Shown piece after piece: positions 27,963 to 55,773 of a DNA stretch of 64,000 nucleotides (positions are counted from its first letter, which is position 1; the number at the start of each line of letters is the position of its first letter). Both the position numbers and the translations under genes were made by a program. The stretch spans positions 39,121 to 103,120 of the forward strand of contig JAUYJT010000061.1 of NCBI GenBank assembly GCA_030700225.1. The letters are read 5' to 3'. This DNA is from Candidatus Nanopelagicales bacterium (GTDB taxonomy: Bacteria; Actinomycetota; Actinomycetes; S36-B12; GCA-2699445). The notes under the pieces are model-generated. The model searched no databases and was not told the DNA's origin. It was given only the letters and a program-made list of their open reading frames with translations.

Positions 27963-29069
27963 ATGACCGAAGATCGGCGTGACAGTCGGCGGCAGGAACT
28001 GAAGGAAACGCCGATCACCGCATGGAACCGGGCGGCCGGAGCCAAGATGGCCGATTTCGCCGGATGGGCGATGCCGATTGAGTACCCGGCCGGCACGATC
28101 TCCGAGCATCGCGCGGTGCGCTCAGGCTGCGGACTGTTCGACGTCTCGCACATGGGAACCGTGCGGATCTCGGGGGGGCCGGCCGTTGCCCGGCTCAACG
28201 AGACCCTCACGAACGACTTGGCTGTTCTGGATGACGGACAAGTGCAGTACACGTTGCTGTGCGACGAGAACGGCGGCGTTGTCGACGACATGCTCGCGAC
28301 GCGCATGCGTGCCGATGAAGTGTTGCTTGTGCCAAATGCCTCCAACACCGCCGCTGTACTGGCTGTGCTGCGCGAGGCTCTTGGCGACGAGGCCGTGGTG
28401 GACGAGGGTGACGTTGCCGCGATTCTGGCGGTCCAAGGTCCCGCATCCCCGGGCGTTCTTGAGAGTCTTGGACTGCCCTCGCGGCACAGGTACTTGACGG
28501 TGGAGACGGCCAAGTTCGAGGGCGTCCCGGTGATCGTCTCCAGGACTGGCTACACCGGCGAAGTCGGATTCGAGATCTTCGTTCCGGTGGCAGCGGCAGC
28601 GAGGCTTTGGGAAAGCCTGATCCAGGTTCCCGCAGTGACCCCGGCTGGGCTTGGTGCTCGCGACACCTTGCGCACCGAGATGGGGTACCCGCTGCATGGA
28701 CACGAGCTGTCGGCATCCATCGGGCCGGTTGAGGCTGGCCTGGCGTGGGCCGTCGCGTGGGACAAGCCGCATTTCATCGGGGACGCTGAGCTTCGGCGGC
28801 AGCGGGCCGAGGGGCCGAAGCGGCGGCTGCGTGGCGTTCGCGTGACGGGGCGGGGCGTGCCCAGGCCGGGCATGGTCGTGCGGGAGGGCGGACGGGATAT
28901 CGGATTGCTGACCAGCGGCACGTTCTCGCCCACGCTCGGTACTGGTATTGGTCTGGCTCTGGTGGAGCCGGATGTTCCGCTGGACAGCGAAGTCGATGTC
29001 GACATCCGCGGCAAGTCCGTAGCTGGGCTGCTCGTGCGGCCGCCTTTCGTCGACTCGTCTCCGAAGTAG
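27963..29069 (+). CDS. gcvT: glycine cleavage system aminomethyltransferase T
   Basis: 368 aa. GWAMPIEY, GLFDVSHMG, SRTGYTGEVGFEI, GLGARDTLR. Confidence 0.93.
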   Translation: MTEDRRDSRRQELKETPITAWNRAAGAKMADFAGWAMPIEYPAGTISEHRAVRSGCGLFDVSHMGTVRISGGPAVARLNETLTNDLAVLDDGQVQYTLLCDENGGVVDDMLATRMRADEVLLVPNASNTAAVLAVLREALGDEAVVDEGDVAAILAVQGPASPGVLESLGLPSRHRYLTVETAKFEGVPVIVSRTGYTGEVGFEIFVPVAAAARLWESLIQVPAVTPAGLGARDTLRTEMGYPLHGHELSASIGPVEAGLAWAVAWDKPHFIGDAELRRQRAEGPKRRLRGVRVTGRGVPRPGMVVREGGRDIGLLTSGTFSPTLGTGIGLALVEPDVPLDSEVDVDIRGKSVAGLLVRPPFVDSSPK

Positions 29070-29080
29070 AGCGGGGTCTT
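28998..29080. repeat. direct repeat copy A (functional 3' end of gcvT plus 11 nt)
   Basis: 83 bp, 78/83 identical by manual alignment to 38992-39074. Covers the last 23 codons and stop of gcvT. Confidence 0.9.
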
Positions 29081-29141
29081 GGGGCGGCTGCTCCCCGATC
29101 CGATGCACCGCCGCGCAGCGGTTGTCTGCTGCCAACTCCGG

Positions 29142-29599
29142 GAGTAGCTTGAAGCTGCTAAGTGGACGTCAAGTGGAAGGGATGGGCCGATCATGTCTCA
29201 GGAACAGATCGCAGTGCTTGTCACCAGGGTGAAGGAAGATGAGGTCTTCGCCGCGGCGCTTGCCGTCGCGACCGACGCGCAGGATGCGCAGCGGATCGCC
29301 TCGGAAGCTGGAATCGAAGTCAGCGCCGAGGAGCTTCTGACGTTGAAAGCTCAGGCGAGCGAGGACGTCTCGGACGCCGAACTTGAGGCTGCCTCCGGCG
29401 GACGTCGTTTCTCCACCCTCGACGTCTGCCCGCCAACGCAGCTGTGCACCTTCGGCTGGATTTGCGGATAGCGGATCCGCGCCACCGCCACTGTCTAGTG
29501 ACACGACGGCGTTTCCGGGGTGGCCGCCAGTGACGGTTGATGCGGCTATCGGTACTCACGGCTGGCCTTGGCACGAGCGTTTGGAGCGCGCTGGGCGAT
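29142..29599. repeat. tandem segmental duplication, copy 1 (lanA upstream region + leader; lanM 5' stub)
   Basis: 29142-29405 matches 29849-30112 (offset 707): the upstream 51 nt are identical and I counted about 17 substitutions in the 213-nt leader part. 29530-29599 matches 30187-30256 (69/70). The core-encoding stretch between them cannot be aligned. Confidence 0.9.
29193..29471 (+). CDS. class II lanthipeptide precursor with Nif11-type leader (LanA1), 92 aa
   Basis: The 70-aa leader MSQEQIAVLVTRVKEDEVFAAALAVATDAQDAQRIASEAGIEVSAEELLTLKAQASEDVSDAELEAASGG ends in a double-Gly. Core RRFSTLDVCPPTQLCTFGWICG (4 Ser/Thr, 3 Cys). GGAAGGGA lies ahead of the ATG. Confidence 0.85.
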   Translation: MSQEQIAVLVTRVKEDEVFAAALAVATDAQDAQRIASEAGIEVSAEELLTLKAQASEDVSDAELEAASGGRRFSTLDVCPPTQLCTFGWICG

Positions 29600-29688
29600 T
29601 GGCACATGTGTCGATCGGTCCGGTGTCCCTGGTTTTGTTGGGTGTGTCGACGCTGTGCTTCGTGGCCGACACCGCTGACGAGGTCTAG
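29530..29688 (+). pseudogene. lanM 5' remnant (first 23 codons conserved, then unrelated, stop after 52 codons)
   Basis: VTVDAAIGTHGWPWHERLERAGR is identical to the LanM N-terminus at 30187. Homology ends abruptly at 29599. Confidence 0.8.
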
Positions 29689-29848
29689 GGCGGGGATGTG
29701 ACCTTGATCCACACAGATGACGGGCCGCTGTATTCCCCCGCACGCTAGGGGTATCCGTCCCTCGCACGCGGGGGGACCCCCCGGGGAAGAGGGATCCATG
29801 GGCTCATCAGAGACCCTCGCGTGGCGGTTGCGTCCTTGGAGTTTTCGT

Positions 29849-30256
29849 GAGTAGCTTGAAGCTGCTAAGTGGACGTCAAGTGGAAGGGATGGGCCGATCA
29901 TGTCTCAGGAACAGATCGCAGTGCTTGTCACCAGGCTGAAGGAAGATGAGGCCTTCGCCGCGGCGCTCGCCGTCGCGACCGACGTGGCCGACGCGCAGCG
30001 AATCGCCTCGGAAGCTGGAATCGAAGTCAGCGCTGACGAGTTTCTGACGTTGATCCCTCAGGCGAGCGAGGACGTCTCAGACGCCGAACTGGAGGCTGCC
30101 TCCGGCGGACGTACTGGACCCGACACCTGCCTTCCCGGGTCGATTCTGTGCACCATCCCCGTGGTTTGCTCATATCAATATCATCCGTGACGGTTGATGC
30201 GGCCATCGGTACTCACGGCTGGCCTTGGCACGAGCGTTTGGAGCGCGCTGGGCGAT
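29849..30256. repeat. tandem segmental duplication, copy 2
   Basis: See copy 1. Contains lanA2 and the authentic lanM start. Confidence 0.9.
29900..30190 (+). CDS. class II lanthipeptide precursor with Nif11-type leader (LanA2), 96 aa
   Basis: The leader is 62/70 identical to LanA1 and ends in AASGG. Core RTGPDTCLPGSILCTIPVVCSYQYHP (5 Ser/Thr, 3 Cys). Its stop overlaps the lanM GTG (GTGA). Confidence 0.85.
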   Translation: MSQEQIAVLVTRLKEDEAFAAALAVATDVADAQRIASEAGIEVSADEFLTLIPQASEDVSDAELEAASGGRTGPDTCLPGSILCTIPVVCSYQYHP

Positions 30257-33200
30257 CCGCTGTATCGACGCAGGCGGACCCTCGCGACGATGCCGAACAA
30301 CCTGAGGTGGTCGCGCAATGGCGGGCTTCGGTCGATCCAGACAACGCCGGATTGTTCGCTAAACGACTGGCTTGGGCAGGGTTGAGCAGCCGCGATGTGG
30401 CGCCGCTGCTGGTCTTGGATGCCGCTCCTCGGGCGGACGCGACCGACTGGTGGGCCGATCTGGAAGCCATGCGCGACGCTTGCCGCCGATCGCAGCAATC
30501 AGCCGGCGGTTCGAACCGCGTCGATCCGGTGGATCCGGGCATCCCGTTCGCGGCGCTCCTGGATCCACTAGTGCGGTGGAACTGGACCAAAGCTCGCCAG
30601 CGTAGTCCTGAACTGCGCGGCCTGGCCATCGGCGCGCAGGAATCGGCCCGAAGGGCGTTGCTGCAAGGGCTGTCCTCGCTGTGCTCACAGGCGCTCGCCG
30701 CTGACTTCGAGGACACCCGACCGATGGGCGCCACACTCTTGCTCAAGCTGGGTTCGCTCCCCGTGGGCCAGGAGCATCCCACAGCCGTCTATGACGAATG
30801 GTGTCGTCGCCACCTCGCTGACGGCCTCACCCGCATGCTCGGTCGCTTTCCGGTGCTGGGTCGCCTGGTCTCGGTTTCTTGCGCTCAGTGGAGCTCGAAC
30901 TTGGTCGCCATGATGCAACGGGTGGACGGCGATCGAGAACTGCTGCAAGCGCATTTCGGCATCCCCGGGCAGGAGCCGATATCCCAAGTGAAGTGGGGGC
31001 TCAGCGATCCCCATCGACGTGGTCGAAGCGTCGCCATCGTTCACTTCGGAGTCGGTGCGCAGCGGCGAAGCATTGTGTACAAGCCCAAGGACATGCGCAT
31101 TGAGGAACGGTTCCAGCAGCTCGTCAGACAAGTCGGGAACTGGCTTGACGACCCCGACTGGAAGTCACTTGCGGTTGTGGCCCGTGGAACGGAGTACGGG
31201 TACGCGGCGCTCGCGGAGCACCGGCACTGCGCCAACGACGACGAGTTGGCGATGTTCTATCGAAACACCGGTCGGCTACTTGCCCTGCTTCACCTGCTCG
31301 GGGCAACGGACGCCCACTTCGAGAACCTGATCGCCGACGGGACCTCACTGCACTTGATCGACGCGGAGACCTTGTTCCAGGGCGGGATGGTTGATCCGAT
31401 CGAACTCAACCCGGCATCGGCAGACCCGCCAGAGAGCGTGTTGGCCGCCTCAGTCCTTCGGGTAGGGCTGCTCCCGTGCTGGCTACTCGGCGGCAGCCCA
31501 ATGCGGGCCTACGACGTCAGCGCGCTGGGCATCAAATCCGTGGAAGGTCCGATGTCAATCCTGGGCTGGGCGCACGTCAACACCGACGACATGGTCTGGG
31601 CGAGAGTCGATTACCTTCCCGACCAACCTGGATCGCTGCCTGTTCCGGCGGGCGTTTCGAACCCCTTGGCCTCACATGTGGACGATGTGACTGCGGGCTT
31701 CGAGCAGGTGTACCGACTGGCCATGGTGCCCGAGTATCGCGAGAGTCTGGTTGCCTCAGTCGCGGCGTTCACCGGGGTTACGCGCCGGATCGTGCTGCGA
31801 GCTACCCGCGTGTACGCCAAGGTGCAGGAGAGCGCCTTGAGCGCCGAGGCGCTCGCCGATGCCAACTGTCGGGCATTCGCGCTGGAGAAACTGTCGCGCA
31901 ACAGTCTGTTGACCGATTCGAAGCGCGCTCAGTGGCAGGTGTTCCTGTCGGAGCTCTTCGACATGGAGAACCTAGACATCCCGTACTTCGAGTATCCGTT
32001 GGGTTCCGATGAGGTGATCTCGTCGACTGGGGCGATTCCCGGCTTACTCGCAGGCAACGAGATCAGCGAAGCGATCGAACGCATCAACAATCTGTCGGAC
32101 ACCGATAGGGCATGGCAGGTGCGACTGATCCGCGGTTCGATTCGGGCTCGCTACCACGCCATCAATCGCGTCGAAGAGCAGCCGCCGATAGTGGATGTCA
32201 CCGCGCCGGGCGATTCGAGTGCCATGACTGTCGGTGCGGTGGCTGACGGACTTCTGACTGGTCTGGCGGAGTCAATGATCGACGACGGCGCTTCGGACCG
32301 CTCGTGGCTCACATTGTCTCTGATCCCGGGCGCGGACAAAGTCAGGCTAGGCCTGATCGGTGATGGGCTGTATGACGGCCGTGCCGGGGTGGCCGCGTTT
32401 CAATTCCTGATGGCAGATCTCGGTCGCGATGGGGCAGTTCGGGCCGATGCAGAGTCCACTGTGGCGCCGGTGCTCCGGCGGCTGGACGACCCCGATCAGT
32501 ACACGCGATTCCGTTGCCTTCGCGATTTCGGCCTCGGCTGGGCAGGTCTGGGTGGGTTGCTCCGACTGTTCGACCTGCGTATGCGCAGCAGTGCTCCGGG
32601 CGACATGTTCGGTGCCCCCGAGGCAGTGAGTCGCTTGGTCTGCCAGGTGTCCGCGGACCTGATCGGGCGGGACCTCCACCGCGACCTGCTGGCGGGCGTC
32701 GCCGGGCTGATAGGTCCGATCGCCCGGATTCATCGCCGGACCCCCACTGAGCGGACGGCCTCCATCCTGCGGGCAGCAGCGGAGCACCTGATGTCGGAGC
32801 AGAGTGGTGATGGGGGCTGGCCGGTCGCTGACGCCAGAGCACCGCTCACTGGACTCGCGCACGGCGCTAGCGGCATGGGTATGGCACTGCTGGAAGCGGG
32901 GACGGTATTGGACGACGATCGGATTGTCGAAGCTGGCACCCGGGCGTTCACCTATGAACGCAGCGTCTTCGATGTCGGCGTCGGTAACTGGCCCGATTTC
33001 CGCGAGCACCCGGGTCGGGAACCAGGCGACTCGTCTTTCATGGTGGCGTGGTGTCACGGTGCTCCGGGCATCGGGCTGGCTCGCATGCGCGCGCTGCAAC
33101 TGCTCCCCGAACATCCGCAGGCCAGTGCGTGGGACGAGGAGTTGCGCCTGGCCATGGATACGACGGTGCGCAGTCCGATCGGAATGATGGACCACCTTTG

Positions 33201-33459
33201 CTGCGGATCCATGGGACGCGCGGCCGTGCTACGGGTCGCTGGGCGTTGGGCTCGAGAGCCAGAATGGGTGGGCGCCGCAGATGAGTTGACCTTCGACGTG
33301 ATCGCACGGGCACGCGTCAGGGGCCGCTTCACGCTGCAGCTCGACGATCCACGCACGGCCGCGACAACCGCACCGGGCCTGATGACAGGGGTCGCAGGAG
33401 TGGGGGCGCACTTGGCGAGCATGATGAGTGACGGTGATCTGTCCACTCTGCTGCTTTGA
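30187..33459 (+). CDS. lanM: class II lanthipeptide synthetase LanM (ProcM-like, CCG zinc-site variant)
   Basis: About 1090 aa. Dehydratase-domain motifs IVYKPKDMRIE, GATDAHFENLIADG, LHLIDAETLF. LanC-like cyclase motifs GLAHGASGMG, WCHGAPGIGLAR, DHLCCGSMGR. Start set at GTG 30187, where homology with the duplicated stub begins. An alternative GTG is at 30148. Confidence 0.9.
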   Translation: MTVDAAIGTHGWPWHERLERAGRSAVSTQADPRDDAEQPEVVAQWRASVDPDNAGLFAKRLAWAGLSSRDVAPLLVLDAAPRADATDWWADLEAMRDACRRSQQSAGGSNRVDPVDPGIPFAALLDPLVRWNWTKARQRSPELRGLAIGAQESARRALLQGLSSLCSQALAADFEDTRPMGATLLLKLGSLPVGQEHPTAVYDEWCRRHLADGLTRMLGRFPVLGRLVSVSCAQWSSNLVAMMQRVDGDRELLQAHFGIPGQEPISQVKWGLSDPHRRGRSVAIVHFGVGAQRRSIVYKPKDMRIEERFQQLVRQVGNWLDDPDWKSLAVVARGTEYGYAALAEHRHCANDDELAMFYRNTGRLLALLHLLGATDAHFENLIADGTSLHLIDAETLFQGGMVDPIELNPASADPPESVLAASVLRVGLLPCWLLGGSPMRAYDVSALGIKSVEGPMSILGWAHVNTDDMVWARVDYLPDQPGSLPVPAGVSNPLASHVDDVTAGFEQVYRLAMVPEYRESLVASVAAFTGVTRRIVLRATRVYAKVQESALSAEALADANCRAFALEKLSRNSLLTDSKRAQWQVFLSELFDMENLDIPYFEYPLGSDEVISSTGAIPGLLAGNEISEAIERINNLSDTDRAWQVRLIRGSIRARYHAINRVEEQPPIVDVTAPGDSSAMTVGAVADGLLTGLAESMIDDGASDRSWLTLSLIPGADKVRLGLIGDGLYDGRAGVAAFQFLMADLGRDGAVRADAESTVAPVLRRLDDPDQYTRFRCLRDFGLGWAGLGGLLRLFDLRMRSSAPGDMFGAPEAVSRLVCQVSADLIGRDLHRDLLAGVAGLIGPIARIHRRTPTERTASILRAAAEHLMSEQSGDGGWPVADARAPLTGLAHGASGMGMALLEAGTVLDDDRIVEAGTRAFTYERSVFDVGVGNWPDFREHPGREPGDSSFMVAWCHGAPGIGLARMRALQLLPEHPQASAWDEELRLAMDTTVRSPIGMMDHLCCGSMGRAAVLRVAGRWAREPEWVGAADELTFDVIARARVRGRFTLQLDDPRTAATTAPGLMTGVAGVGAHLASMMSDGDLSTLLL

Positions 33460-33465
33460 CTGCTC

Positions 33466-35967
33466 CTACAGCTGTTGGCGTTCGATGAGGTCGTGGAACG
33501 GTCCGGGTCTAGCCATGAGTTCGGCGAACTTGCCTTCGGCAACGACGACTCCGTCTGTGAGCATGACCACCAGATCGGCTTGTTCGATAGTGGACAAGCG
33601 GTGTGCCACAACCACGCGGGTGATGTTCAGTCGGTCCAGGTTGGCTACGACCGCAGCCTGGCTGACGTTGTCCAGCGCAGACGTAGCCTCGTCGAGAATC
33701 AGGATCCGGGGCTTGCCCGCCAGCGCGCGCGCCAGCAGGATTCGCTGGCGCTGGCCACCTGATACCGCACCGGTGCCTTCCACTACGACGGTCGCCAGTC
33801 CCATCGGCATGGCGCGCACATCTTCAGCCACTGCCGCGTCCGCTAGGGCCTGCCAGATTTGTGCCGCCGACAAGCCCCGGCCCAGGTCGACGTTCTCTCT
33901 GATGCTGCCGGGCATGAGGGCCGAGGACTGCATCACCGATCCGATCTGGCGACGCACGGACGAGCGATCGAGAGCCGACAGGTCGCGTCCGTCGAAGGAC
34001 ACGATTCCTGACTCCGGATTCTCCAACCCCAGCACGAGGCGCAGCAGTGTGCTCTTGCCGCAACCGGACGGTCCGACGATCGCCACGTGCGCCCCTGCTG
34101 GAATGGCGAAGCTGACACCCCGCAGCACCGGCGGAGTGTCGGGCCGGTAGGAGAACACCAGGTCGCGCAGGTCGATCGAACCAGCCAGTTGCGCGACCTC
34201 CTGGCCAGTGCCGGACTCGGGCTCAGCGCGCAGCACGGACCGGGCACGCTCAAGCACGGCCCGTGCGCTCAGACCCGCGCCGACCGATGCGACCGCAGCA
34301 GCAACCGCAGATGTCGCCGCCGTCAAGGCAGTCTGGGCGGTGACCAGGCTGCCCACACTTGTCCCTGCCGCAGCCGTGACTGCGAGCAGGACAGCTAGCC
34401 CCGCCGAAGGCCACAGCGCTCCGGTCATCTGTTGGGCCACAGTGAGTCGACGCTGGCGCACTTCGGTCGCCGTTGTGCGGGTCTGGGAAGTGGCCCACAG
34501 GGCGAAGGCGCGCCCGGTCGCGCCTGACACCCGCAGGCGGCTAACCCCGGCGATCAGGCCGAGCGTGACTGACTGGCTTTCCGTGCTCGCGTCGAGGACT
34601 TCCCGGGTCAGTCGCGCCGCGCGGCGCACGAGCAGCAGCTCGACGACGGCTCGTACAACCAGGAACGCCAGCAGTGCGGTCGCCAGCGACAAACTCGTCG
34701 TTGCCACACCAAGCATGGCGCCCACCACGGCGGAGATGTCCAGCAGGGAGGTAATGACCGAGTTCGACATGCTCATCGAGGCCGTGTCAACAGCGTTGGC
34801 GTCGGTCATGCGCGAGGCAACGGTGCGCTGGTTCTGCCACGACATTGGAAGGCGTATCAACCGATCCCAAACCGCGGTCGCCGTCACGGCCACTCCGCGG
34901 CCACGAATGCGCAACATGGCGTACAACCGCACGGCCCGAAGCGCCATATCGCCAGCGGCGAAAGCCACCAGGGCAACGCCGACGACCAGGAGCGTCGACC
35001 CGGTCTGGCTAGCCACGGTCGAGGTGAGCTGTCCGGCCACAATCGGGATGACGGCGGCCAGCACTCCCACGATCGCTGTCAGCATCGCGACCAGCCACAG
35101 ACTCTTCTTGCTGCCTCGCAAACCCAGGCGCACCAGGTCGCGGATCCGAGCCGGGCGATTCGGATCCAACAGGGGCTCGAAAAGAATCGCCTCGCGCGAC
35201 CACGGCGCAGCGGTGGCCGCGTCGAGGGCGGCGTGCAGGCCTAGGGTCGGCTCCCACACGTGGTAGGCACCCCTGCGCCAGACAGCCGCACCGTAAGTCG
35301 CCCGGTGGCGGTCCTGTAGCAACAGCGGGGGCCCCTCCTGACGCCACCAACCGGGCGTCAGTCCAACCCGCCGCACGGCCGCACCGGACGCGGCGGCCAG
35401 GGATGTGATCGTGTCGCGGCCGGTGATCTCAACGTCGGCGACGGCCCGGCGAAGGAGCAAAGGATTCGGCCGCAGCCCAATCTGTCGCGCCATGAATTCC
35501 ACTACCGCGACATCGTCGGGAAGATCACCGGAGGTGAGCAAATCCGGCTTCTGGCCCGGAACCGCCGCCGCCAGGCCCAGCAGGGCATCGTCGATCAATC
35601 GCTCATCGTGGCGCGCGGACAACCGCAGCAGGTCAGCCGCCGACAGGTTTCGGTCGTTTGCCGCGCTGAGCGCCTCGCGAGCCGATCGGGCCATCGCCTG
35701 CTCGGCAGCATCGTCCGTGGCGGAGACCGGCTCGACTTGCGTGCCCGGCAACCCAACGCCAACCAGGTCAGCCCCTTCCACCTGCGCGCCAGTCAGTTGG
35801 CTAGGGGGAGTGACCTCGCACACCGGGATGCGCCGACCCGGACCGGCATCCGTGCGGGGAACAACGAACACCACAACCGTCCCCGTCACAACCCGCACTG
35901 TCGTGCCGGGGGTCAAGTGCAGGATCTCCGTGGCGTCGAGGGTGTGACGGATGTCAGCGGTGTTCAC
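33466..35967 (-). CDS. bacteriocin-export ABC transporter, permease/ATPase with N-terminal cNMP-binding-like barrel (NHLP/Nif11 system 'ABC2' type)
   Basis: 833 aa. The N-terminal ~150 aa domain has no peptidase Cys. It is followed by a 6-TM permease, then Walker A GPSGCGKST, signature LSGGQRQR and Walker B LILDEATSALD. Confidence 0.8.
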   Translation of the reverse strand: MNTADIRHTLDATEILHLTPGTTVRVVTGTVVVFVVPRTDAGPGRRIPVCEVTPPSQLTGAQVEGADLVGVGLPGTQVEPVSATDDAAEQAMARSAREALSAANDRNLSAADLLRLSARHDERLIDDALLGLAAAVPGQKPDLLTSGDLPDDVAVVEFMARQIGLRPNPLLLRRAVADVEITGRDTITSLAAASGAAVRRVGLTPGWWRQEGPPLLLQDRHRATYGAAVWRRGAYHVWEPTLGLHAALDAATAAPWSREAILFEPLLDPNRPARIRDLVRLGLRGSKKSLWLVAMLTAIVGVLAAVIPIVAGQLTSTVASQTGSTLLVVGVALVAFAAGDMALRAVRLYAMLRIRGRGVAVTATAVWDRLIRLPMSWQNQRTVASRMTDANAVDTASMSMSNSVITSLLDISAVVGAMLGVATTSLSLATALLAFLVVRAVVELLLVRRAARLTREVLDASTESQSVTLGLIAGVSRLRVSGATGRAFALWATSQTRTTATEVRQRRLTVAQQMTGALWPSAGLAVLLAVTAAAGTSVGSLVTAQTALTAATSAVAAAVASVGAGLSARAVLERARSVLRAEPESGTGQEVAQLAGSIDLRDLVFSYRPDTPPVLRGVSFAIPAGAHVAIVGPSGCGKSTLLRLVLGLENPESGIVSFDGRDLSALDRSSVRRQIGSVMQSSALMPGSIRENVDLGRGLSAAQIWQALADAAVAEDVRAMPMGLATVVVEGTGAVSGGQRQRILLARALAGKPRILILDEATSALDNVSQAAVVANLDRLNITRVVVAHRLSTIEQADLVVMLTDGVVVAEGKFAELMARPGPFHDLIERQQL

Positions 35968-38126
35968 GCCATCACCAATCGTCGGTACGGGCCGTCCACC
36001 GCGACCAGGTCGACGTGACGCCCGCGCTGCACGACTTGACCCTTGTCGAGGACGATGATCTCGTCCGCGTCGCGCACCGTGGACAGCCGATGGGCAATGA
36101 TGAGACTCGACGCGCCTCTTCGTCGGATCGCGGCGTCGATGTGCGCCTCGGTTGCCGCGTCCAACGCCGAGGTGGCTTCATCCATGATCAGCAGGGCCGG
36201 GTTGCGCACCAGAGCGCGGGCGATCTCGAGCCTTTGCCGCTGTCCACCCGACAGGTCCCCGCCGCCCTCGCGCAGTTGCGCCTCGTAGGAACCCGGGCGG
36301 CGCGCGATCTCGTCGTGTAGGGCCGCGTCCTTGACTGCCTGAACGACGGCGGCGTCATCGATGGTGGGATCCCACAGGGTGATGTTGTCGCGGAAGGTGC
36401 CAGCGAAGATCACCGGATCTTGGTCGACTATTGCCATGTCGTGATGCAGGACCTCCTCCGGCCACCACTGGCGCGGCTTGCCGTCGACCATCACCGCCCC
36501 CTCCCACGGTTGATACAGCCCGATCACCAACCGCGCCACTGTCGACTTCCCGCACCCGCTGGGTCCAACCAGCGCCACGCGAGAACCAGGGGCGATGTGT
36601 AGGTCCAAATCGGTCAACAGAGGCGGCCGATTGCGGTCGTATCCAAAGACCAAACCATCCAGCCGCAGGTCTCCCACGACAAAGGCCGGCCGGGGCTCGC
36701 CGGATGCATCGACCTGAATGTCAGGCAGTTTGGTTTGCAGAACGTCGTCGATCTGATCGAGTTCGCCGGATAGCATCTCGGCTTGCTGGAACTGCGCGAC
36801 CACCATGGCCGCGGGTGCCAGTGCCAATCCCAGCAGCGTCTGTACAGCGACGAACCCGGCCAGCGTTAGCTGCCCTTTCGTGACGCCGAGGAGTCCGACA
36901 ACCGTTACCGCCGCATCCGCAACTGTGATCAGGAAGACGGGCAGCAGATCGATGCCGACCGTGCGCTCACCCAACTGCTGCAGTGCCGCCAGAAAGCGGT
37001 TATGGGCAGCCGTCCATCGAGCGCCGAGGTGGTCTTCGGCACCGGACGCCTTGATTACCTCGAGCTGACTCAAGGAGGTAACGGCAATCGTCGCGACCTC
37101 GGTCTGTTCTCTGACCATTCTCATGGCCAGAGTGCGTCGCCTTCTGGATGCTGACGCCATCGCCAAGACGACGAATGCGACGGCGGCGACAGCAACCGCC
37201 CCCGCCGGCGGGTAGGCGAAGACCATCAGCGCCACCGCGGTCGAGCTGCTGATGACTCCAACTACCATCGTGGAGAACATGGTGGACACGGTCGCGGCCA
37301 CCCGAGCCGGTTGGAGGGCTCTTTGCGCCAAGGCGCCAGCGCCTCGCATGGCGTGGAAGTTCGCCGGGAGGAGGAACAGGCGAGCGACCAGCTTGGACTG
37401 CAGAACCACTGACAACTTCGTAGCCAAACGCATTCCGACGGCGCCCTGCAGTCCGATCAGAGCGGCCTGCATCAGGGCTGCGAAGGCTAGCGCTGCGAGC
37501 AGACTCGGCACCTGCACCACCGGGCCGCCCTGAAGCCAATCCACGAACAGCCGGGCGATCCCCGGCACCAGAATCTGGGGAATAACCAGCAGCAGCCCCA
37601 GCAGCGCGATGAGGAGAACGCCGTCGCGGGATCCTGTGAGGTAGCTGGCGAGTCTCGAAACCAGCCGTGGAGGCCGACCGCCCCTGACGAACTCGGGGCC
37701 GGGCGTCATCTCCAACACGATCCCGGTGAACGACTCGTCGAATTCCTCGTCGCTGCAGGTGCGGTGGCCGAGCGCCGGATCGTTCAGATACCAGCCATCC
37801 GGTGACCACCCTTCCACCACGAGGAAATGGTCAAAGCGCCAGAAGACTATGGCGGGAAGCGTGCGGGTCTTCAGGGTCTCGGGCTGGCTGCGGCGAGCCA
37901 TAACCTCCATCCCATACTTCTGGGCGGCGATCTTGACCGCGAGGGCGTTGCTCCCGTCTCGGGAGATACCGCACGCATCGCGCAGCTCCTCCAGCGGCAC
38001 CCACTTTCCATAGTGGGCCAAGACGATGCCGAGCGACGCCGCACCGCACTCGGTGGCCTCCATCTGCAGGCGTGCCGGCGTCTTCTCACGGTGGCGCCTT
38101 GACGCCGCAGCAGTGCTGGTACTCAC
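35964..38126 (-). CDS. bacteriocin-export ABC transporter with N-terminal C39 peptidase domain (NHLP/Nif11 system 'ABC1' type; LanT-like)
   Basis: 720 aa. C39 residues are visible (QMEATECGAASLGIV Cys; FDHFLVVEG His; LNDPA Asp). GPSGCGKST, LSGGQRQR, LIMDEATSALD. ATGA overlap with the downstream ABC gene. Confidence 0.88.
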   Translation of the reverse strand: MSTSTAAASRRHREKTPARLQMEATECGAASLGIVLAHYGKWVPLEELRDACGISRDGSNALAVKIAAQKYGMEVMARRSQPETLKTRTLPAIVFWRFDHFLVVEGWSPDGWYLNDPALGHRTCSDEEFDESFTGIVLEMTPGPEFVRGGRPPRLVSRLASYLTGSRDGVLLIALLGLLLVIPQILVPGIARLFVDWLQGGPVVQVPSLLAALAFAALMQAALIGLQGAVGMRLATKLSVVLQSKLVARLFLLPANFHAMRGAGALAQRALQPARVAATVSTMFSTMVVGVISSSTAVALMVFAYPPAGAVAVAAVAFVVLAMASASRRRRTLAMRMVREQTEVATIAVTSLSQLEVIKASGAEDHLGARWTAAHNRFLAALQQLGERTVGIDLLPVFLITVADAAVTVVGLLGVTKGQLTLAGFVAVQTLLGLALAPAAMVVAQFQQAEMLSGELDQIDDVLQTKLPDIQVDASGEPRPAFVVGDLRLDGLVFGYDRNRPPLLTDLDLHIAPGSRVALVGPSGCGKSTVARLVIGLYQPWEGAVMVDGKPRQWWPEEVLHHDMAIVDQDPVIFAGTFRDNITLWDPTIDDAAVVQAVKDAALHDEIARRPGSYEAQLREGGGDLSGGQRQRLEIARALVRNPALLIMDEATSALDAATEAHIDAAIRRRGASSLIIAHRLSTVRDADEIIVLDKGQVVQRGRHVDLVAVDGPYRRLVMA

Positions 38127-38974
38127 TGCTTCCCCAGCAACTGCTCCAACAGGCTCCGCTCGCTGACCAGGATGACCCCCTCGAACTCGTCGCTGGACGG
38201 AGCGGGCTCGTCAAGCAGCACTTCGATGACAACCCGCGGCCCTGGCGGGGGATCAAGTGTTCCCATGCCTTCCTGAACTAGGGCGGGTGACAGCGCCGGA
38301 CTGCGATCGGGCCCGATCCGCCCGGCCAGCACAGGCCCGCCGCTAACGGACACGGTCACCGACTGACCCTCAACCACTTTTCCCGCCTCGTCCGGCAGCA
38401 CGGTGATCAGGCCGACGCGGCCGTCATCAACCTTCAGTGACACCTGCGCAAGCCATTCGCCGGTATGTATCGGAGCCCCGGGCGACGAAAGGTAGCCCAG
38501 CAGCGTTCCTTCGACTTGCGAAAACTGGGGCACGGCGCGTTTGCCCGCGATGACATCCGCAACCCGCTGGCCGACGGTGACGCGCTCACCAGGCTTGACG
38601 GCGAAACTGCCGAACTGCCCCTTCGCGCTGGAGGTGACAAGGCCGATGCCGTTGAGTCCGACGACCCGACCCGAACCCGACACGGTGACGTTGCGCGGGG
38701 TGATCGCCGTGTAGGCGATGGCGGCGCCGATCAGGATGACAGCCGAAACAACAAGCAGCCAGATGCGCAGAGACGTCACCGGCAGCAGCTGGTCGAGTCG
38801 GTTGCTGGACTCATTCGCCTCCAGCGCTGCGGTTCGGTAACTAACCGCGAGTGGAGACGACGATGGCGATGTTCGCGATTGCGGCGAAGGGGCTGTCTGA
38901 TCAGCCGGCTGATTCGTGATGAGAAACCTCCCTCTGGCTGGCTTGGCTATCCTCGCCCACAGTAACGCGATCAT
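38123..38974 (-). CDS. short HlyD-family / membrane-fusion-like secretion protein of the bacteriocin exporter
   Basis: YRTAALEANESSNRLDQLLPVTSLRIWLLVVSAVILIGAAIAY (N-terminal motif plus single TM as in NHLM-system HlyD proteins), then beta-barrel-like repeats (VKPGERVTVGQRVADV, VVEGQSVTV). Start trimmed to ATG (complement of 38972-38974). The 486-aa ORF runs antisense through the gcvT remnant and the next gene. Confidence 0.7.
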   Translation of the reverse strand: MIALLWARIAKPARGRFLITNQPADQTAPSPQSRTSPSSSPLAVSYRTAALEANESSNRLDQLLPVTSLRIWLLVVSAVILIGAAIAYTAITPRNVTVSGSGRVVGLNGIGLVTSSAKGQFGSFAVKPGERVTVGQRVADVIAGKRAVPQFSQVEGTLLGYLSSPGAPIHTGEWLAQVSLKVDDGRVGLITVLPDEAGKVVEGQSVTVSVSGGPVLAGRIGPDRSPALSPALVQEGMGTLDPPPGPRVVIEVLLDEPAPSSDEFEGVILVSERSLLEQLLGKQ

Positions 38975-38991
38975 GTCGGCAATGGCTGGGA

Positions 38992-39074
38992 GTCGACATC
39001 CGCGGCAAGGCCGTAGCCGGGCTGCTTGTGCGGCCGCCTTTCGTCGACTCGTCCCCGAAGTAGAGCGGAGTCTT
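38992..39074. repeat. direct repeat copy B = orphan gcvT 3' fragment (23 codons + stop, no upstream gene body)
   Basis: Would encode VDIRGKAVAGLLVRPPFVDSSPK*, against VDIRGKSVAGLLVRPPFVDSSPK* in gcvT. Homology starts abruptly at 38992. Confidence 0.9.
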
Positions 39075-39135: not shown

Positions 39136-40578
39136 GTGTTACAGTCCGCCGTGGCTGTCGGCGCGGAGGAATCTCAGGGGCTCCAGCCCTCCGAGCCGGG
39201 CATCGAGTCGGCATGGCTGAACCGCCAGCGGGCTTGGCTTGAGAGCCGAGCGAACATCCTGGGTCTTGTCGGGTTTTGTTTCGCCGTCGGGATCGGACTG
39301 GCAAATCAGCTCGCGTTTGGATTCGCCGGAGATCTGGATCTGCTCGGTAGCGGCCTGACCCTGGCAGTGGCCGGCCTCGTCGCCGGGGCTGGTATCGCGG
39401 TCGCCCTGACTCGCCGCCTCGGCAGGTGGCATCTGGCGATCGCAGCGACGGCCTTCGGCACGACGATCGCGCCGGTGGTGTCGGCCATGGCGCACTCCGA
39501 GCGCGTCTTGCCACAGGCCATCGCTCTAAGCCTCGCCGCCTCAGGCGCAGTTCTCTGCGCGGGTGCGGCGAAGCCCGGCACAATCCGCTCGGTCGCGTTC
39601 TGGACTCTGGCCGCGATCATCTGGGTGAGCCTGGCGTTGGCTGTCGCGAACCTGCTCTTCGGGGGCGAGGCCGCGTTCCGCAACCACTACTACCCCAGAT
39701 ACAGCGAGTACCTGGGACTTCCGGTCCTGTCCGGCATCACGGGACATCAGAACACGTTGGGATTCATCGCGGCCATCGCTCTGCCGGTCCAGTGGGTTAT
39801 CGCGGACGGCAAGTCAGTGATCCGCCGCCGCCTGCGTGCCGAACCTCGAACGCTTCTGCTGGTAGCGCTCGGCCCGGTCGCGACCGCGATCGCGCTCCTG
39901 TGGTCCCAGAGCCGGACGTCGCTCGCGGCCGCCGTCCTTGGCTTGATCGTTGTCTCACTCCCGCTGCGTCGCCTGGCAGGCCGGACTTGGGCGTTCGCCT
40001 GGGCTGGGCTCCTCGCGGTGCTCGCACTCGGCCCGCTCGCGGTTGGTTTGGTCGGCATCACGACCTTCACCGGCCGCGTGGAGATGTGGACCTACGCGTT
40101 CGCGGACTTCCGCGCGAATCCACTCTTCGGCTACGGCTCAGCGTTCATGGGCAGGGACGGCTACTGGCGCGACAAGCCGACGTTCCCCGACCTATTCGGG
40201 GCCCACAACCAGCTCATGGAGATGCTGGGCCGCACCGGAATGATTGGGGCCATTTCGTTCACCGCTATGGCCGTCGTCCTCGCGGTGGCGGCATGGAAGG
40301 TGCACCAACGCGACGGGGGAGTCGCGGCGGCGATCATCGTCGTCTACGCGCTCATTGGCAGCCTGGAGACCCTGATTCCTCTAGCGCAAGCTCAGGCCGT
40401 TGGGCTGAGGGAGGTCTTCACCCCAATGATCCTGGCGCTGGGGTTGATCGCCTCGTCACTGGCGCTCGTCTCGCGTCGCGGGGATGGGAAGGACAATCAG
40501 GACGCGCCCGTCAGCCGGAACGCACCGCACGACGTCGGGCGGCCCGCGCGTAGAAGGCTCCCAGGACAGCCGTCGTGA
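39136..40578 (+). CDS. O-antigen ligase / polymerase-like (Wzy_C) integral membrane protein
   Basis: 480 aa, polytopic. LLWSQSRTSLAA and FGAHNQLMEMLGRTGMIG are typical of the O-antigen ligase family. Start uncertain. Confidence 0.65.
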   Translation: MLQSAVAVGAEESQGLQPSEPGIESAWLNRQRAWLESRANILGLVGFCFAVGIGLANQLAFGFAGDLDLLGSGLTLAVAGLVAGAGIAVALTRRLGRWHLAIAATAFGTTIAPVVSAMAHSERVLPQAIALSLAASGAVLCAGAAKPGTIRSVAFWTLAAIIWVSLALAVANLLFGGEAAFRNHYYPRYSEYLGLPVLSGITGHQNTLGFIAAIALPVQWVIADGKSVIRRRLRAEPRTLLLVALGPVATAIALLWSQSRTSLAAAVLGLIVVSLPLRRLAGRTWAFAWAGLLAVLALGPLAVGLVGITTFTGRVEMWTYAFADFRANPLFGYGSAFMGRDGYWRDKPTFPDLFGAHNQLMEMLGRTGMIGAISFTAMAVVLAVAAWKVHQRDGGVAAAIIVVYALIGSLETLIPLAQAQAVGLREVFTPMILALGLIASSLALVSRRGDGKDNQDAPVSRNAPHDVGRPARRRLPGQPS

Positions 40579-41743: not shown

Positions 41744-41781
41744 AGCGACCCTTTCTCCCGCTCCCGCAGTCGTTCGCGCCG

Positions 41782-55763: not shown

Positions 55764-55773
55764 GGCACTGGTA

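What the first reader, a model, noticed from the sequence alone, without database searches (positions are those of the whole stretch)
29142..38974. ProcM-like class II lanthipeptide system with two Nif11-leader precursors embedded in core actinobacterial genes
Seen directly: (1) Two small ORFs (92 and 96 aa) have first 70 residues that read like a Nif11-type leader and end in ELEAASGG, a double-glycine cleavage motif. (2) Their short Cys/Ser/Thr-rich cores are RRFSTLDVCPPTQLCTFGWICG and RTGPDTCLPGSILCTIPVVCSYQYHP. (3) A ~1090-aa LanM has dehydratase motifs (DAHFENLI, LIDAETLF) and LanC-like cyclase motifs. (4) A convergent operon encodes a HlyD-like protein, an ABC transporter with an intact-looking C39 peptidase (Cys in ECGAASL, His in FDHFLVV, Asp in NDPA) and a second ABC protein with a cNMP-binding-like N-domain. 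Established knowledge: this part list matches the prochlorosin-style LanM pathway and the NHLP/Nif11 export trio (TIGRFAMs TIGR03794/03796/03797, from memory). Inference: the cores resemble no characterised lanthipeptide I can recall. The island has no LanFEG/LanI-type immunity gene, no regulator and no additional protease. The products, self-protection and biological role are therefore open.
Basis: partly seen in the sequence, partly recalled or inferred. Interest (0 to 1): 0.85.

Follow-up and report, generated by a model that had tools for sequence, protein, structure and literature searches.

The report
Prochlorosin-type lanthipeptide island in a freshwater actinobacterium
This is a complete, intact-looking gene island for making and exporting small ring-closed peptides (class II lanthipeptides of the ProcM/Nif11 type); the kind is known and already named by automatic annotation, but here it sits as a 10-kb insertion in an uncultured actinobacterium and swaps its peptide "cores" between close strains.

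Summary
HMMs place both small ORFs in the Nif11-leader family and the 1090-aa enzyme in LanM, above the curated cut-offs. The enzyme has the ProcM-type CCG zinc site. The C39 domain of the first ABC protein aligns to LahT150 with its catalytic residues intact.

Corrections and additions:
- The three export proteins hit the NHLP/Nif11 trio models best, but all score below their cut-offs.
- The HlyD-like protein is a short form of 283 aa.
- The second ABC protein carries a CRP-like beta-roll, visible only at fold level, followed by a C39-like domain without the catalytic Cys.
- An 83-nt duplication of the gcvT 3' end brackets the island (29081-39074). In a Micrococcales relative, gcvT abuts iclR-leuCD directly.
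- A 70-nt copy of the lanM start follows lanA1.
- A sister genome about 97% identical carries different cores at the same sites.
- Three of the four cores share one predicted three-ring scaffold.

NCBI already names the precursors and the enzyme in "Candidatus Nanopelagicales" genomes assembled from metagenomes (MAGs). Verdict: a new member of a known kind. Interest is moderate, resting on the host phylum and the cassette turnover. Products and role remain untested.

The parts
28998..29080 (+). Left copy of an 83-nt direct repeat. It is the last 23 codons and the stop of gcvT plus 11 nt, and marks the left border of the island.
   Evidence: the repeat finder family D2: 94% identical to 38992-39074, spacing 9994. 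Both copies are also present in the sister genome.
29139..29405 (+). Cassette repeat, copy 1. It covers 54 nt upstream (ribosome-binding region), the whole LanA1 leader and the first core codon.
   Evidence: 93% identical to 29846-30112. Identity stops abruptly right after the Gly-Gly codons.
29193..29471 (+). lanA1: Nif11-leader precursor, 92 aa. The leader is 29193-29402 and the core RRFSTLDVCPPTQLCTFGWICG is 29403-29468.
   Evidence: TIGR03798 50.3 bits (cut-off 32.3); PF07862. Identical to NCBI MDP4014894.1 / MDZ4250862.1.
29530..29599 (+). 70-nt copy of the 5' end of lanM, beginning exactly at its GTG. It is a scar of a former lanA-lanM junction and opens a 52-aa ORF (29530-29688).
   Evidence: 99% identical to 30187-30256. 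The same fragment follows the first precursor in the sister genome. The 52-aa ORF is called in the NCBI record.
29677..29845 (+). Spacer upstream of lanA2. It is also found upstream of the lanA2 copy in the sister genome, next to insertion-sequence fragments. No promoter, terminator or RNA family was recognised in it.
   Evidence: blastn window vs L001 and L003. RNA fold z-score 0.45. No Rfam match. No promoter-like sites.
29900..30190 (+). lanA2: Nif11-leader precursor, 96 aa. The leader is 29900-30109 and the core RTGPDTCLPGSILCTIPVVCSYQYHP is 30110-30187.
   Evidence: TIGR03798 43.6 bits; PF07862. The core DNA is 78/78 identical in the sister genome.
30187..33459 (+). lanM: class II lanthipeptide synthetase of the ProcM (CCG) type, 1090 aa. 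Its GTG start overlaps the lanA2 stop (GTGA).
   Evidence: TIGR03897 620.8 bits; DUF4135 plus LANC_like. Motifs DAHFEN, LIDAETLF, GLAHGASG, WCHGAPG and DHLCCGSMG. Aligns to LicM2 6st5 and CylM 5dzt.
33466..35967 (-). ABC2: ABC exporter half-transporter, 833 aa. The domain order is a CRP-like beta-roll plus long helix (aa 8-135), a C39-like domain without Cys (aa 151-265), a membrane domain and an ATPase. It converges on lanM with only 6 nt between the stop codons.
   Evidence: TIGR03797 552 bits, below the 709 cut-off. No Pfam hit on aa 1-290. AlphaFold model with pLDDT 80. Foldseek finds CRP/CprK/Vfr/PKA-R and also PCAT1, LahT and the HlyB C39-like domain. There is no Cys in aa 136-290.
35964..38126 (-). 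ABC1: peptidase-containing ABC exporter (PCAT), 720 aa, with an intact C39 domain (aa 17-144, nt 37695-38078). Its stop overlaps the ABC2 start by 4 nt.
   Evidence: TIGR03796 801 bits, just below the 853 cut-off; PF03412 107.8 bits. Against LahT150 6mpz, E 1.3e-41, with QMEATECGAASL, FDHF and NDPA aligned.
38123..38974 (-). Short HlyD-like adaptor, 283 aa from ATG 38974. It has a cytoplasmic N-terminus, one membrane helix and about 195 aa outside the cell. Its stop overlaps the ABC1 start by 4 nt.
   Evidence: TIGR03794 matches only profile positions 4-89, at 39.6 bits (cut-off 156); there are weak Biotin_lipoyl and HlyD_3 hits. Homologues of 248 and 276 aa occupy the same operon position in L045 and L044 and share the N-terminal motif YR..A...LD.LLPVTS.R.WLL. 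The 218-aa public gene call is therefore too short.
38992..39074 (+). Right copy of the 83-nt direct repeat, a detached gcvT 3' end that marks the right border of the island.
   Evidence: Its 5 differences from the left copy are 3 synonymous, 1 Ser/Ala and 1 after the stop. This suggests it came from a functional gcvT of a close relative (read directly).

Best explanation
The region 29081-39074 is a 10-kb genomic island. It is inserted at the 3' end of gcvT in an uncultured actinobacterium that NCBI labels 'Candidatus Nanopelagicales bacterium'. It encodes a complete prochlorosin-type class II lanthipeptide pathway.

Proposed mechanism (everything in this section is inferred from family knowledge):
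1. LanA1 and LanA2 are translated with a 70-aa Nif11-type leader.
2. LanM binds the leader. Its kinase-like domain phosphorylates core Ser/Thr and eliminates the phosphate to give Dha/Dhb.
3. Its cyclase domain, with a Cys3 zinc site, adds the three core Cys to form three thioether rings.
4. The LahT-like C39 domain of ABC1 cuts after ELEAASGG.
5. The peptide is exported by ABC1 together with ABC2 and the short membrane adaptor. ABC2 is probably a partner subunit that docks or regulates through its dead C39-like domain and its CRP-like domain.

Predicted products:
- A1 is a 22-mer with rings Ser4-Cys9, Thr12-Cys15 and Thr16-Cys21.
- A2 is a 26-mer with rings Thr2-Cys7, Ser11-Cys14 and Thr15-Cys20.
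- Both follow one pattern: ring spacings i to i+5, i to i+3 and i to i+5.

Origin and turnover. The island most likely entered by a single crossover of a circular molecule that carried an 83-nt gcvT 3' fragment. New cores are swapped in by recombination anchored on the conserved leader and the lanM 5' end.

Role. It is unknown. I lean towards a secreted, strain-specific antagonistic peptide (about 0.5) over a signal (about 0.3).
For: Shown here:
- Family assignments by HMM.
- The CCG zinc motif and the kinase-like motifs are present and align to solved LanMs.
- The C39 catalytic residues align to LahT150. The literature reports that this protease cleaves Nif11-type and prochlorosin leaders (PMC12328550).
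- The genes are coupled by 4-nt overlaps: lanA2/lanM, hlyD/ABC1 and ABC1/ABC2 (read directly).
- All ORFs are intact. dN/dS against the sister genome is 0.32 for lanM, 0.03 for ABC1 and 0.13 for ABC2.
- The same gene set recurs in other actinobacterial contigs: Nif11 LanA, CCG LanM, a 248-276-aa adaptor, a C39-ABC and a second ABC.
- Ring scaffold: the sister-genome core P0122 has exactly 3 Thr and 3 Cys, at spacings i+5, i+3 and i+5. A1 and A2 have Ser/Thr and Cys at the same spacings.
- Island borders: the 83-nt direct repeat, and gcvT directly next to iclR-leuCD in a Micrococcales MAG.
- Recent spread: positions 31200-38800 are about 99.5% identical to the sister genome, against 96-97% in the flanks. 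dS is 0.009-0.02 inside against 0.07-0.11 outside.
- Cassette exchange: leaders are 90-97% identical at DNA level and cores 49-64%, with the break right after the GG codons. Leaders are mosaics of one another, and a lanM 5' fragment follows lanA1.
Against: - Nothing is tested experimentally, and the organism is known only from MAGs.
- The three export proteins score below the curated cut-offs of their best families.
- No promoter or terminator was recognised. lanM and ABC2 converge with a 6-nt gap and no hairpin.
- There is no immunity gene, which is unusual for an antibiotic.
- No integrase lies in the island, so the insertion mechanism is inferred from the repeat alone.
- Ring patterns made by CCG enzymes are substrate-controlled and often not predictable from sequence.
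- lanA1 sits in a recombination scar and could be silent.
- A heterodimer of ABC1 and ABC2 is a guess. Both ATPase sites look canonical.
Confidence: 0.8

Rival explanations
1. LanA1 and LanA2 are the two halves of a two-component lantibiotic made by a single LanM, as in roseocin of Streptomyces roseosporus. The two modified peptides would act together on the cell envelope of Gram-positive competitors.
For: There are two adjacent precursors with near-identical leaders and different cores, one LanM and an actinobacterial host. Roseocin is the precedent (PMC10027976).
Against: - Roseocin-family clusters use NHLP leaders and CHG-type LanMs and carry immunity genes. This island has Nif11 leaders and a CCG LanM, and I found no immunity gene.
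- The sister genome has three precursors, with other cores at the same two sites.
- A1 and A2 share one ring scaffold rather than showing an alpha/beta division.
- By eye, there is no mersacidin-like CTxS/TxEC motif.
Confidence: 0.1
2. The locus is a decaying or partly silent remnant. lanA1 is a dead cassette left by recombination, and the island is no longer expressed.
For: A truncated lanM fragment and unrelated filler follow lanA1. The sister genome has IS3- and IS21-like fragments between cassettes. No promoter was found.
Against: - All six ORFs are intact in both genomes.
- lanA1 keeps the same 54-nt upstream region as lanA2.
- dN/dS is well below 1 for lanM, ABC1 and ABC2.
- The A2 core is 78/78 identical between genomes while its leader differs at 10 positions.
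Confidence: 0.08
3. The peptides are not antibiotics. They are a small diversity-oriented set with a signalling or other non-killing role, as suspected for prochlorosins. Export would be gated by a nucleotide or alarmone sensed by the CRP-like domain of ABC2, as in HetC.
For: No immunity gene is present. Prochlorosins have no detected antimicrobial activity (PMC11251773). HetC has the same domain order, and its cNMP-type domain binds ppGpp and is required in vivo (PMC10986499). The ABC2 N-domain has a CRP-like fold.
Against: - The beta-roll gets no Pfam cNMP_binding hit, and by eye it lacks a phosphate-binding cassette.
- Rapid strain-specific core turnover is also what bacteriocin arms races produce.
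- No cognate sensor lies in the island.
Confidence: 0.3

Closest known systems
Prochlorosin system (ProcA precursors and ProcM, Prochlorococcus MIT9313; also SyncM of Synechococcus)
   Same: It has Nif11-type leaders ending in Gly-Gly and a single class II LanM with the CCG (Cys3) zinc site. Leaders are conserved while cores differ sharply between close strains. No immunity gene is known.
   Different: - The host is an actinobacterium, not a cyanobacterium.
- Only 2 precursors (3 in the sister genome) were found, all next to the enzyme, rather than tens scattered over the genome.
- Three of the four cores keep one three-ring scaffold.
- LanM is only about 34% identical to the cyanobacterial group.
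- The exporter is encoded in the same island.
NHLP/Nif11 bacteriocin export trio of Haft et al. 2010 (TIGR03794 HlyD-like, TIGR03796 ABC with peptidase, TIGR03797 ABC without active peptidase)
   Same: The same three gene types sit next to Nif11 precursors, and these models are the best hits for all three proteins.
   Different: All three score below the curated cut-offs. The adaptor is 283 aa against a 421-position model, and only its N-terminal 86 residues match. That fits a cell without an outer membrane. NCBI did not give any of the three the trio names.
LahT / LahT150 (PDB 6mpz), double-glycine protease domain of a PCAT from a Lachnospiraceae bacterium
   Same: The C39 domain of ABC1 matches at E 1.3e-41, with the Gln, Cys, His and Asp positions aligned. 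LahT150 is reported to cleave Nif11 and prochlorosin leaders.
   Different: It belongs to a different organism and cluster. Substrate cleavage was not tested here.
HetC of Nostoc PCC 7120 (cNMP-binding domain, C39 peptidase, ABC exporter)
   Same: ABC2 has the same order of domains: CRP-like beta-roll, C39 fold, membrane domain and ATPase.
   Different: HetC's peptidase is active and its N-domain is recognised by sequence. The C39-like domain of ABC2 has no Cys, and its beta-roll gets no Pfam hit. In this respect it resembles the inactive C39-like domain of HlyB (3zua).
Roseocin family (Streptomyces roseosporus RosA1/RosA2 and RosM)
   Same: It is actinobacterial, with one LanM for two precursors that have conserved leaders and different cores, plus a peptidase-ABC exporter.
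   Different: Roseocin clusters have an NHLP leader, a CHG zinc motif and immunity genes.
Other actinobacterial and metagenomic CCG-LanM loci found here (L044, L045, L002)
   Same: L044 and L045 have the same set: Nif11 LanA, CCG LanM, short adaptor, C39-ABC and second ABC. L044 has WhiB nearby.
   Different: - LanM is 43-51% identical.
- In L044 and L045 the export genes run in the same direction as lanM, and a two-component regulator lies next to them.
- The cores are unrelated. L002 and L045 share YTFPxTDWIYCDNPWTNxxCTLKC.
- L002 has no exporter nearby.

Membership tests
Class II lanthipeptide synthetase (LanM, TIGR03897) | Whole-protein HMM score above the curated cut-off | tested here: met
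   620.8 bits against a cut-off of 304.
Class II lanthipeptide synthetase (LanM, TIGR03897) | One polypeptide with an N-terminal DUF4135 dehydratase and a C-terminal LanC-like cyclase, with kinase-like D-x-H-x-x-N and D-x-E motifs and zinc ligands | tested here: met
   PF13575 301 bits and PF05147 118 bits. DAHFEN, LIDAETLF, GLAHGASG, WCHGAPG and CCG align to LicM2 and CylM.
Class II lanthipeptide synthetase (LanM, TIGR03897) | Dehydration and cyclisation of the precursor | not testable with these tools
   Needs co-expression and mass spectrometry.
ProcM-like (CCG) LanM subgroup | Cys-Cys-Gly in place of Cys-His-Gly at the third zinc-ligand motif | tested here: met
   DHLCCGSMG, where LicM2 has LCHG at the aligned position. 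All full-length relatives retrieved carry CCG.
ProcM-like (CCG) LanM subgroup | Substrates with Nif11 (or NHLP) leaders | tested here: met
   TIGR03798 above cut-off for both precursors.
ProcM-like (CCG) LanM subgroup | Many precursors with unrelated cores, spread over the genome | tested here: inconclusive
   Only two leader-like sequences occur in the 64-kb window. Only four precursors with this leader exist among 5.8 billion proteins. Three of the four cores share a scaffold. The rest of the genome was not available.
Nif11-leader RiPP precursor (TIGR03798 / PF07862) | HMM above cut-off and a leader ending in a double-glycine cleavage motif | tested here: met
   50.3 and 43.6 bits against 32.3. 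PF07862 scores 32.7 and 29.8 against 23.8. Both leaders end in ELEAASGG.
NHLP/Nif11 export trio (TIGR03796, TIGR03797, TIGR03794) | Each protein scores above the curated equivalog cut-off | tested here: not met
   801.4 vs 853.3, 552.3 vs 709.4 and 39.6 vs 156.2 bits. They are best hits only. NCBI names are generic or 'hypothetical'.
NHLP/Nif11 export trio (TIGR03796, TIGR03797, TIGR03794) | Three adjacent genes (adaptor, ABC with peptidase, ABC without active peptidase) next to Nif11/NHLP precursors | tested here: met
   The operon 38974 to 33466 on the minus strand has 4-nt overlaps and lies 3.3 kb from lanA2.
Peptidase-containing ABC transporter (PCAT, C39) | Catalytic Cys and His, the Asp, and the oxyanion Gln | tested here: met
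   Q21, C27, H99 and D116 by my count, in QMEATECGAASL, FDHF and NDPA. They align to LahT150. PF03412 scores 107.8 bits.
HetC-like cNMP-domain PCAT | N-terminal cyclic-nucleotide-binding domain recognisable by sequence | tested here: not met
   No Pfam hit at E up to 10. Only one distant homologue has a sub-threshold PF00027 hit. The fold-level match to CRP-family proteins has E about 4e-4, probability 0.96-1.0 and low TM-score.
HetC-like cNMP-domain PCAT | Active C39 peptidase after the cNMP domain | tested here: not met
   The C39 fold is present (TM-score, normalised to the target, 0.56-0.62 to PCAT1, LahT and the HlyB C39-like domain). There is no Cys in aa 136-290.
Roseocin-type two-component lantibiotic | NHLP leader, CHG LanM and immunity genes | tested here: not met
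   This island has a Nif11 leader and a CCG motif, and I found no immunity gene inside it.
Integrative genomic island | Direct repeats of the target-gene end at both borders | tested here: met
   83 nt, 94% identical, 9994 nt apart.
Integrative genomic island | An integrase or recombinase inside the island | tested here: not met
   The borders enclose only six genes and one 52-aa ORF, and none is a recombinase.

The most novel reading that the evidence does not exclude
The locus may preserve the way RiPP cores are diversified in nature.
- The conserved leader and the first 70 nt of lanM act as recombination anchors. The segment between them (core plus 3' tail) is exchanged as a cassette between strains.
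- The whole 10-kb island moves without its own integrase, by single crossover at an 83-nt gcvT fragment.
- Export may be gated through the CRP-like domain of ABC2, as in HetC.

Together these would make a compact, tractable model of prochlorosin-style diversification, in a second phylum that shares the plankton with picocyanobacteria.
Probability: 0.25. Interest if true: 0.6.

Novelty: new member of a known kind. Interest (0 to 1): 0.36.

Why it matters
In the literature I could read, Nif11-leader lanthipeptides made by CCG-type LanMs are treated as a cyanobacterial speciality, and their function has been open since 2010.

This locus shows the same chemistry in aquatic Actinomycetota, together with the roughly 70 metagenomic LanMs more than 35% identical to it, several of them named as Actinomycetes, Micrococcales or freshwater. 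Here it comes as a small self-contained island with its own exporter. With two or three precursors on one scaffold, it is a simpler test bed than ProcM with its 29 substrates.

Comparing two genomes about 97% identical gives a direct view of core turnover: four cores at three sites, mosaic leaders and a lanM-start scar.

It does not open a new category. The practical value is limited because the host is uncultured and the products are unknown.

Tried and rejected
- **Close relatives by LanM:** the genome-contig scan found none. A second scan with GcvT gave only relatives of 62% identity or less. These were useful for synteny but did not give an empty site within the species.
- **Metagenome scans:** the exact direct-repeat pattern gave 0 hits. 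A narrower one gave 345 pattern matches but no relative.
- **ABC2 N-domain by sequence:** Pfam found nothing at E 10. BLASTP against the ABC1 C39 domain was not significant, E 5.6. PDB by sequence matched only the ABC core. The word-indexed protein search found one partial homologue. The exhaustive search found 59 relatives, of which one has a sub-threshold cNMP_binding hit. Only the predicted structure resolved the question.
- **HlyD-like protein:** The single-sequence model was unusable, pLDDT 39.
- **Spacer 29677-29899:** no Rfam family and no unusual RNA stability, z 0.45.
- **CRISPR idea:** the 28-mer at 29730-29757, which from memory looks like a type I-E CRISPR repeat, is a single copy with no array in the window. 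I rejected this as a CRISPR locus.
- **Regulatory signals:** the promoter scan found 0 sites, and terminator-like sites were at chance level. There is no hairpin between the convergent stop codons.
- **Literature:** Zhang et al. 2012 (PNAS) and 2015 (AEM), which may already describe CCG LanMs in Actinobacteria, are not held. Priority could not be checked.
- **Cores against MIBiG:** no tool was available, so this was not tested.

Full report

Yes.
- LanA1 (29193-29471, 92 aa) and LanA2 (29900-30190, 96 aa) have 70-residue leaders that end in ELEAASGG.
- The cores are RRFSTLDVCPPTQLCTFGWICG and RTGPDTCLPGSILCTIPVVCSYQYHP.
- NCBIfam TIGR03798 (Nif11-like leader) scores 50.3 and 43.6 bits against a cut-off of 32.3. 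Pfam Nif11 also passes.
- The large ORF scores 620.8 bits on TIGR03897 (cut-off 304) and has DUF4135 plus LANC_like domains.
- The real lanM start is GTG at 30187, giving 1090 aa. That is the length called in a 97%-identical public protein. It is also exactly where a duplicated copy of the lanM start begins. It overlaps the lanA2 stop by 4 nt.
- On the other strand, hlyD-like (38974-38123), ABC1 (38126-35964) and ABC2 (35967-33466) overlap each other by 4 nt and converge on lanM. Only 6 nt separate the two stop codons, and there is no hairpin.

**2. Tests of the specific labels**

*ProcM-like.* The third zinc-ligand motif reads DHLCCGSMG, where the solved class II enzyme LicM2 has LCHG at the aligned position. 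WCHGAPG, GLAHGASG and the kinase-like DAHFEN and LIDAETLF motifs are present. Every full-length relative retrieved, about 115 in all, carries CCG. So the nearest relatives of this enzyme are CCG-type enzymes, including one named Cyanobacteriota, and not the classical CHG LanMs of actinomycetes.

*Intact C39.* ABC1 residues 10-144 match LahT150 (PDB 6mpz) at E 1.3e-41. QMEATECGAASL, FDHF and NDPA align to the corresponding LahT motifs. LahT150 is reported to cut Nif11 and prochlorosin leaders (PMC12328550).

But all three proteins score below the curated cut-offs: 801 vs 853, 552 vs 709 and 39.6 vs 156 bits. NCBI's pipeline named them only 'C39 domain-containing', 'ATP-binding cassette domain-containing' and 'hypothetical'.

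*cNMP-binding-like N-domain of ABC2.*
- Sequence methods fail. Pfam finds nothing at E 10, and BLASTP against the ABC1 peptidase domain is not significant.
- An AlphaFold model built from seven sequences has a mean pLDDT of 80. It shows a beta-roll (aa 8-80), a 50-residue helix (86-135) and an alpha/beta domain (151-265).
- Foldseek against the PDB returns two sets of hits. One is CRP, CprK, Vfr, GlxR and PKA regulatory subunits, at E about 4e-4 and probability 0.96-1.0. The other is C39 domains: PCAT1 7n87/8vpb, LahT 6mpz and the inactive C39-like domain of HlyB 3zua, with target-normalised TM-scores of 0.56-0.62.
- There is no Cys anywhere in aa 136-290.
The domain order is that of HetC of Nostoc, whose cNMP-type domain binds ppGpp (PMC10986499), except that HetC's peptidase is active.

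*HlyD-like.* Only the first 86 profile positions of the 421-position model match. Homologues of 248 and 276 aa sit in the same operon position in two other actinobacterial loci. They share the N-terminal motif YR..A...LD.LLPVTS.R.WLL. This puts the start at ATG 38974 (283 aa), not at the public 218-aa call. A short adaptor fits a cell without an outer membrane; that is an inference. A single-sequence structure model failed.

**3. Whose genome, and how common?**

LanA1, LanA2, ABC1 and ABC2 are identical to proteins of NCBI MAGs named 'Candidatus Nanopelagicales bacterium' (taxonomy).

A sister MAG, GCA_034523275.1, is about 96-98% identical in DNA.

Only four precursors with this leader exist among 5.8 billion clustered proteins, all from these MAGs. 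None was found in JGI metagenome contigs.

The LanM has many metagenomic relatives at 40-56% identity. Several are named Actinomycetes, Micrococcales or freshwater metagenome. Two that I inspected carry the same gene set plus a two-component regulator (L044 with WhiB nearby, and L045).

**4.

(a) *The borders.* An 83-nt direct repeat, 94% identical, lies at 28998-29080 and again at 38992-39074. The first copy is the end of gcvT with its stop. The 5 differences are 3 synonymous, 1 Ser/Ala and 1 after the stop. The detached copy therefore looks like the end of a working gcvT from a close relative.

(b) *The insertion.* In the nearest species-level relative available, a Micrococcales MAG with 62% GcvT identity, the order is sucB-lpd-pepA-gcvT followed directly by iclR-leuC-leuD. 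In the window, 13.7 kb lie between gcvT and iclR. They are the lanthipeptide island and a three-gene envelope-polysaccharide module: Wzy_C, a Polysacc_synt-like gene and WecG.

(c) *The cassette repeat.* Positions 29139-29405 and 29846-30112 are 93% identical. Each covers 54 nt upstream plus the leader. Identity ends right after the Gly-Gly codons. After the LanA1 core and 58 unique nt comes a 70-nt copy (99%) of the lanM start (29530-29599). So lanA1 derives from a second lanA-lanM junction.

(d) *The sister genome.*
- It has the core GTGLTFCFCPPGVFTVIWCG at the lanA1 site.
- It has FGGLTAYVGCAPTLLCTVNWICGPRH at the next site, followed by IS3- and IS21-like fragments.
- It then has a third precursor whose core DNA is 78/78 identical to LanA2.
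- Leaders are 90-97% identical in DNA, while cores are 49-64%.
- The leaders are mosaics of each other. For example, P0122 has an A1-like N-terminal half and an A2-like C-terminal half.

(e) *Uneven divergence.* Positions 31200-38800 are about 99.5% identical between the two genomes, against 96-97% in the flanks. dS is 0.009 for ABC2 and 0.02 for ABC1, against 0.07-0.11 for lpd, pepA and gcvT. The island interior is therefore younger than, or was exchanged after, the split of the two lineages.

**5. How it most likely works**

Shown here: the family memberships, the intact motifs, the coupled gene arrangement and purifying selection (dN/dS 0.03-0.32).

Inferred from established knowledge of LanM, PCAT and ProcM systems:
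1. Leader-guided phosphorylation and elimination of Ser/Thr.
2. Zinc-assisted Cys addition to close the rings.
3. Cleavage after GG by ABC1.
4. Export by ABC1 with ABC2 and the adaptor.

The ring pattern is a prediction. The sister core P0122 has exactly three Thr and three Cys, at spacings i+5, i+3 and i+5 (T5-C10, T13-C16, T17-C22). A1 (S4-C9, T12-C15, T16-C21) and A2 (T2-C7, S11-C14, T15-C20) offer the same spacings. The cores are thus variants of one scaffold rather than a free library. The fourth core, P0123, departs from it.

The insertion is best explained by a single crossover of a circular molecule that carried the gcvT fragment. That needs no integrase, and none is present.

The role is open. 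Rapid strain-specific core change fits antagonism, while the lack of an immunity gene and the prochlorosin precedent fit a non-killing role.

**6. Comparison with what is known, and novelty**

The system works like the prochlorosin pathway combined with the NHLP/Nif11 export trio. It passes the membership tests for LanM, the CCG subgroup motif and the Nif11 leader. It fails the curated cut-offs for the three export families. It does not show the many scattered substrates typical of ProcM.

It is not a roseocin-type system, which has NHLP leaders and CHG enzymes.

The papers I could read list Nif11/CCG lanthipeptides as cyanobacterial. Haft 2010 lists LanM-adjacent Nif11 peptides only for cyanobacteria. 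Two key papers that may report actinobacterial CCG enzymes were not available.

Because the parts are all of known kinds and already carry correct public names, I rate this a new member of a known kind. The host phylum, the bracketed island and the visible cassette turnover give it moderate interest, which I score at 0.36.

Noticed in passing
window 53778-58767: A Type III restriction-modification system lies in the most GC-poor stretch of the window (GC 0.60-0.62). Two adjacent ORFs (261 and 394 aa) each carry part of an N6_N4_Mtase domain, which may be a split or frameshifted mod gene. A 997-aa ResIII helicase-endonuclease follows.
   Followed up: partly
window 19430-20548: A single 372-aa ORF combines an AbiEi_4 antitoxin-type N-terminus with an NTP_transf_2/Polbeta nucleotidyltransferase C-terminus. 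In AbiE systems these are usually two separate genes.
   Followed up: no
window 29530-29688: A 52-aa ORF starts at the duplicated lanM GTG. Its first 23 residues are the LanM N-terminus, followed by a hydrophobic stretch (VSIGPVSLVLLGVSTLCFVA). It is annotated as a gene in the NCBI MAG. In the sister genome the stop is TGG and the ORF runs to 106 aa. It is probably a by-product of the rearrangement, but a small membrane peptide cannot be excluded.
   Followed up: partly
window 29730-29757: From memory, the 28-mer GTATTCCCCCGCACGCTAGGGGTATCCG resembles a type I-E CRISPR repeat. It occurs once, next to a partial second palindrome. There is no array anywhere in the window.
   Followed up: yes
window 39136-42738: Three envelope-polysaccharide genes also lie between gcvT and iclR: Wzy_C-like, a weak Polysacc_synt-like 410-aa membrane protein, and a WecB/TagA/CpsF glycosyltransferase. 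They are absent from that position in the Micrococcales MAG L004. They form a second inserted module, outside the direct repeats.
   Followed up: partly
L001 1-783 and L003 6056-6459 (sister MAG GCA_034523275.1): Fragments of an IS3-type transposase and of an IS21 IstA N-terminus sit between the second and third lanA cassettes, where the assembly breaks into two contigs.
   Followed up: partly
window 28998-29080 / 38992-39074; L003 4865-4947 / L001 10097-10179: Within the sister genome the two copies of the 83-nt repeat are 97.6% identical and share variants (GGGAAGGCTGTGGCC) that differ from both window copies. This suggests gene conversion between the two borders.
   Followed up: no
L002 7379-7654 and L045 9648-9929: Two distant CCG-LanM loci (LanM 51% and 43% identical to the window's) encode nearly the same core, YTFP(R/A)TDWIYCDNPWTN(AW/YY)CTLKC. 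This is a conserved lanthipeptide family unlike the variable cores of the window.
   Followed up: no
window 33459-33466: lanM and ABC2 end 6 nt apart on opposite strands, with no terminator-like hairpin. The two transcripts must overlap or collide.
   Followed up: partly
window 29900-30190 vs L001 1005-1295: The A2 core is 78/78 nt identical between the two genomes, while its leader differs at 10 of 210 nt. This is the reverse of the pattern at the other cassettes.
   Followed up: no
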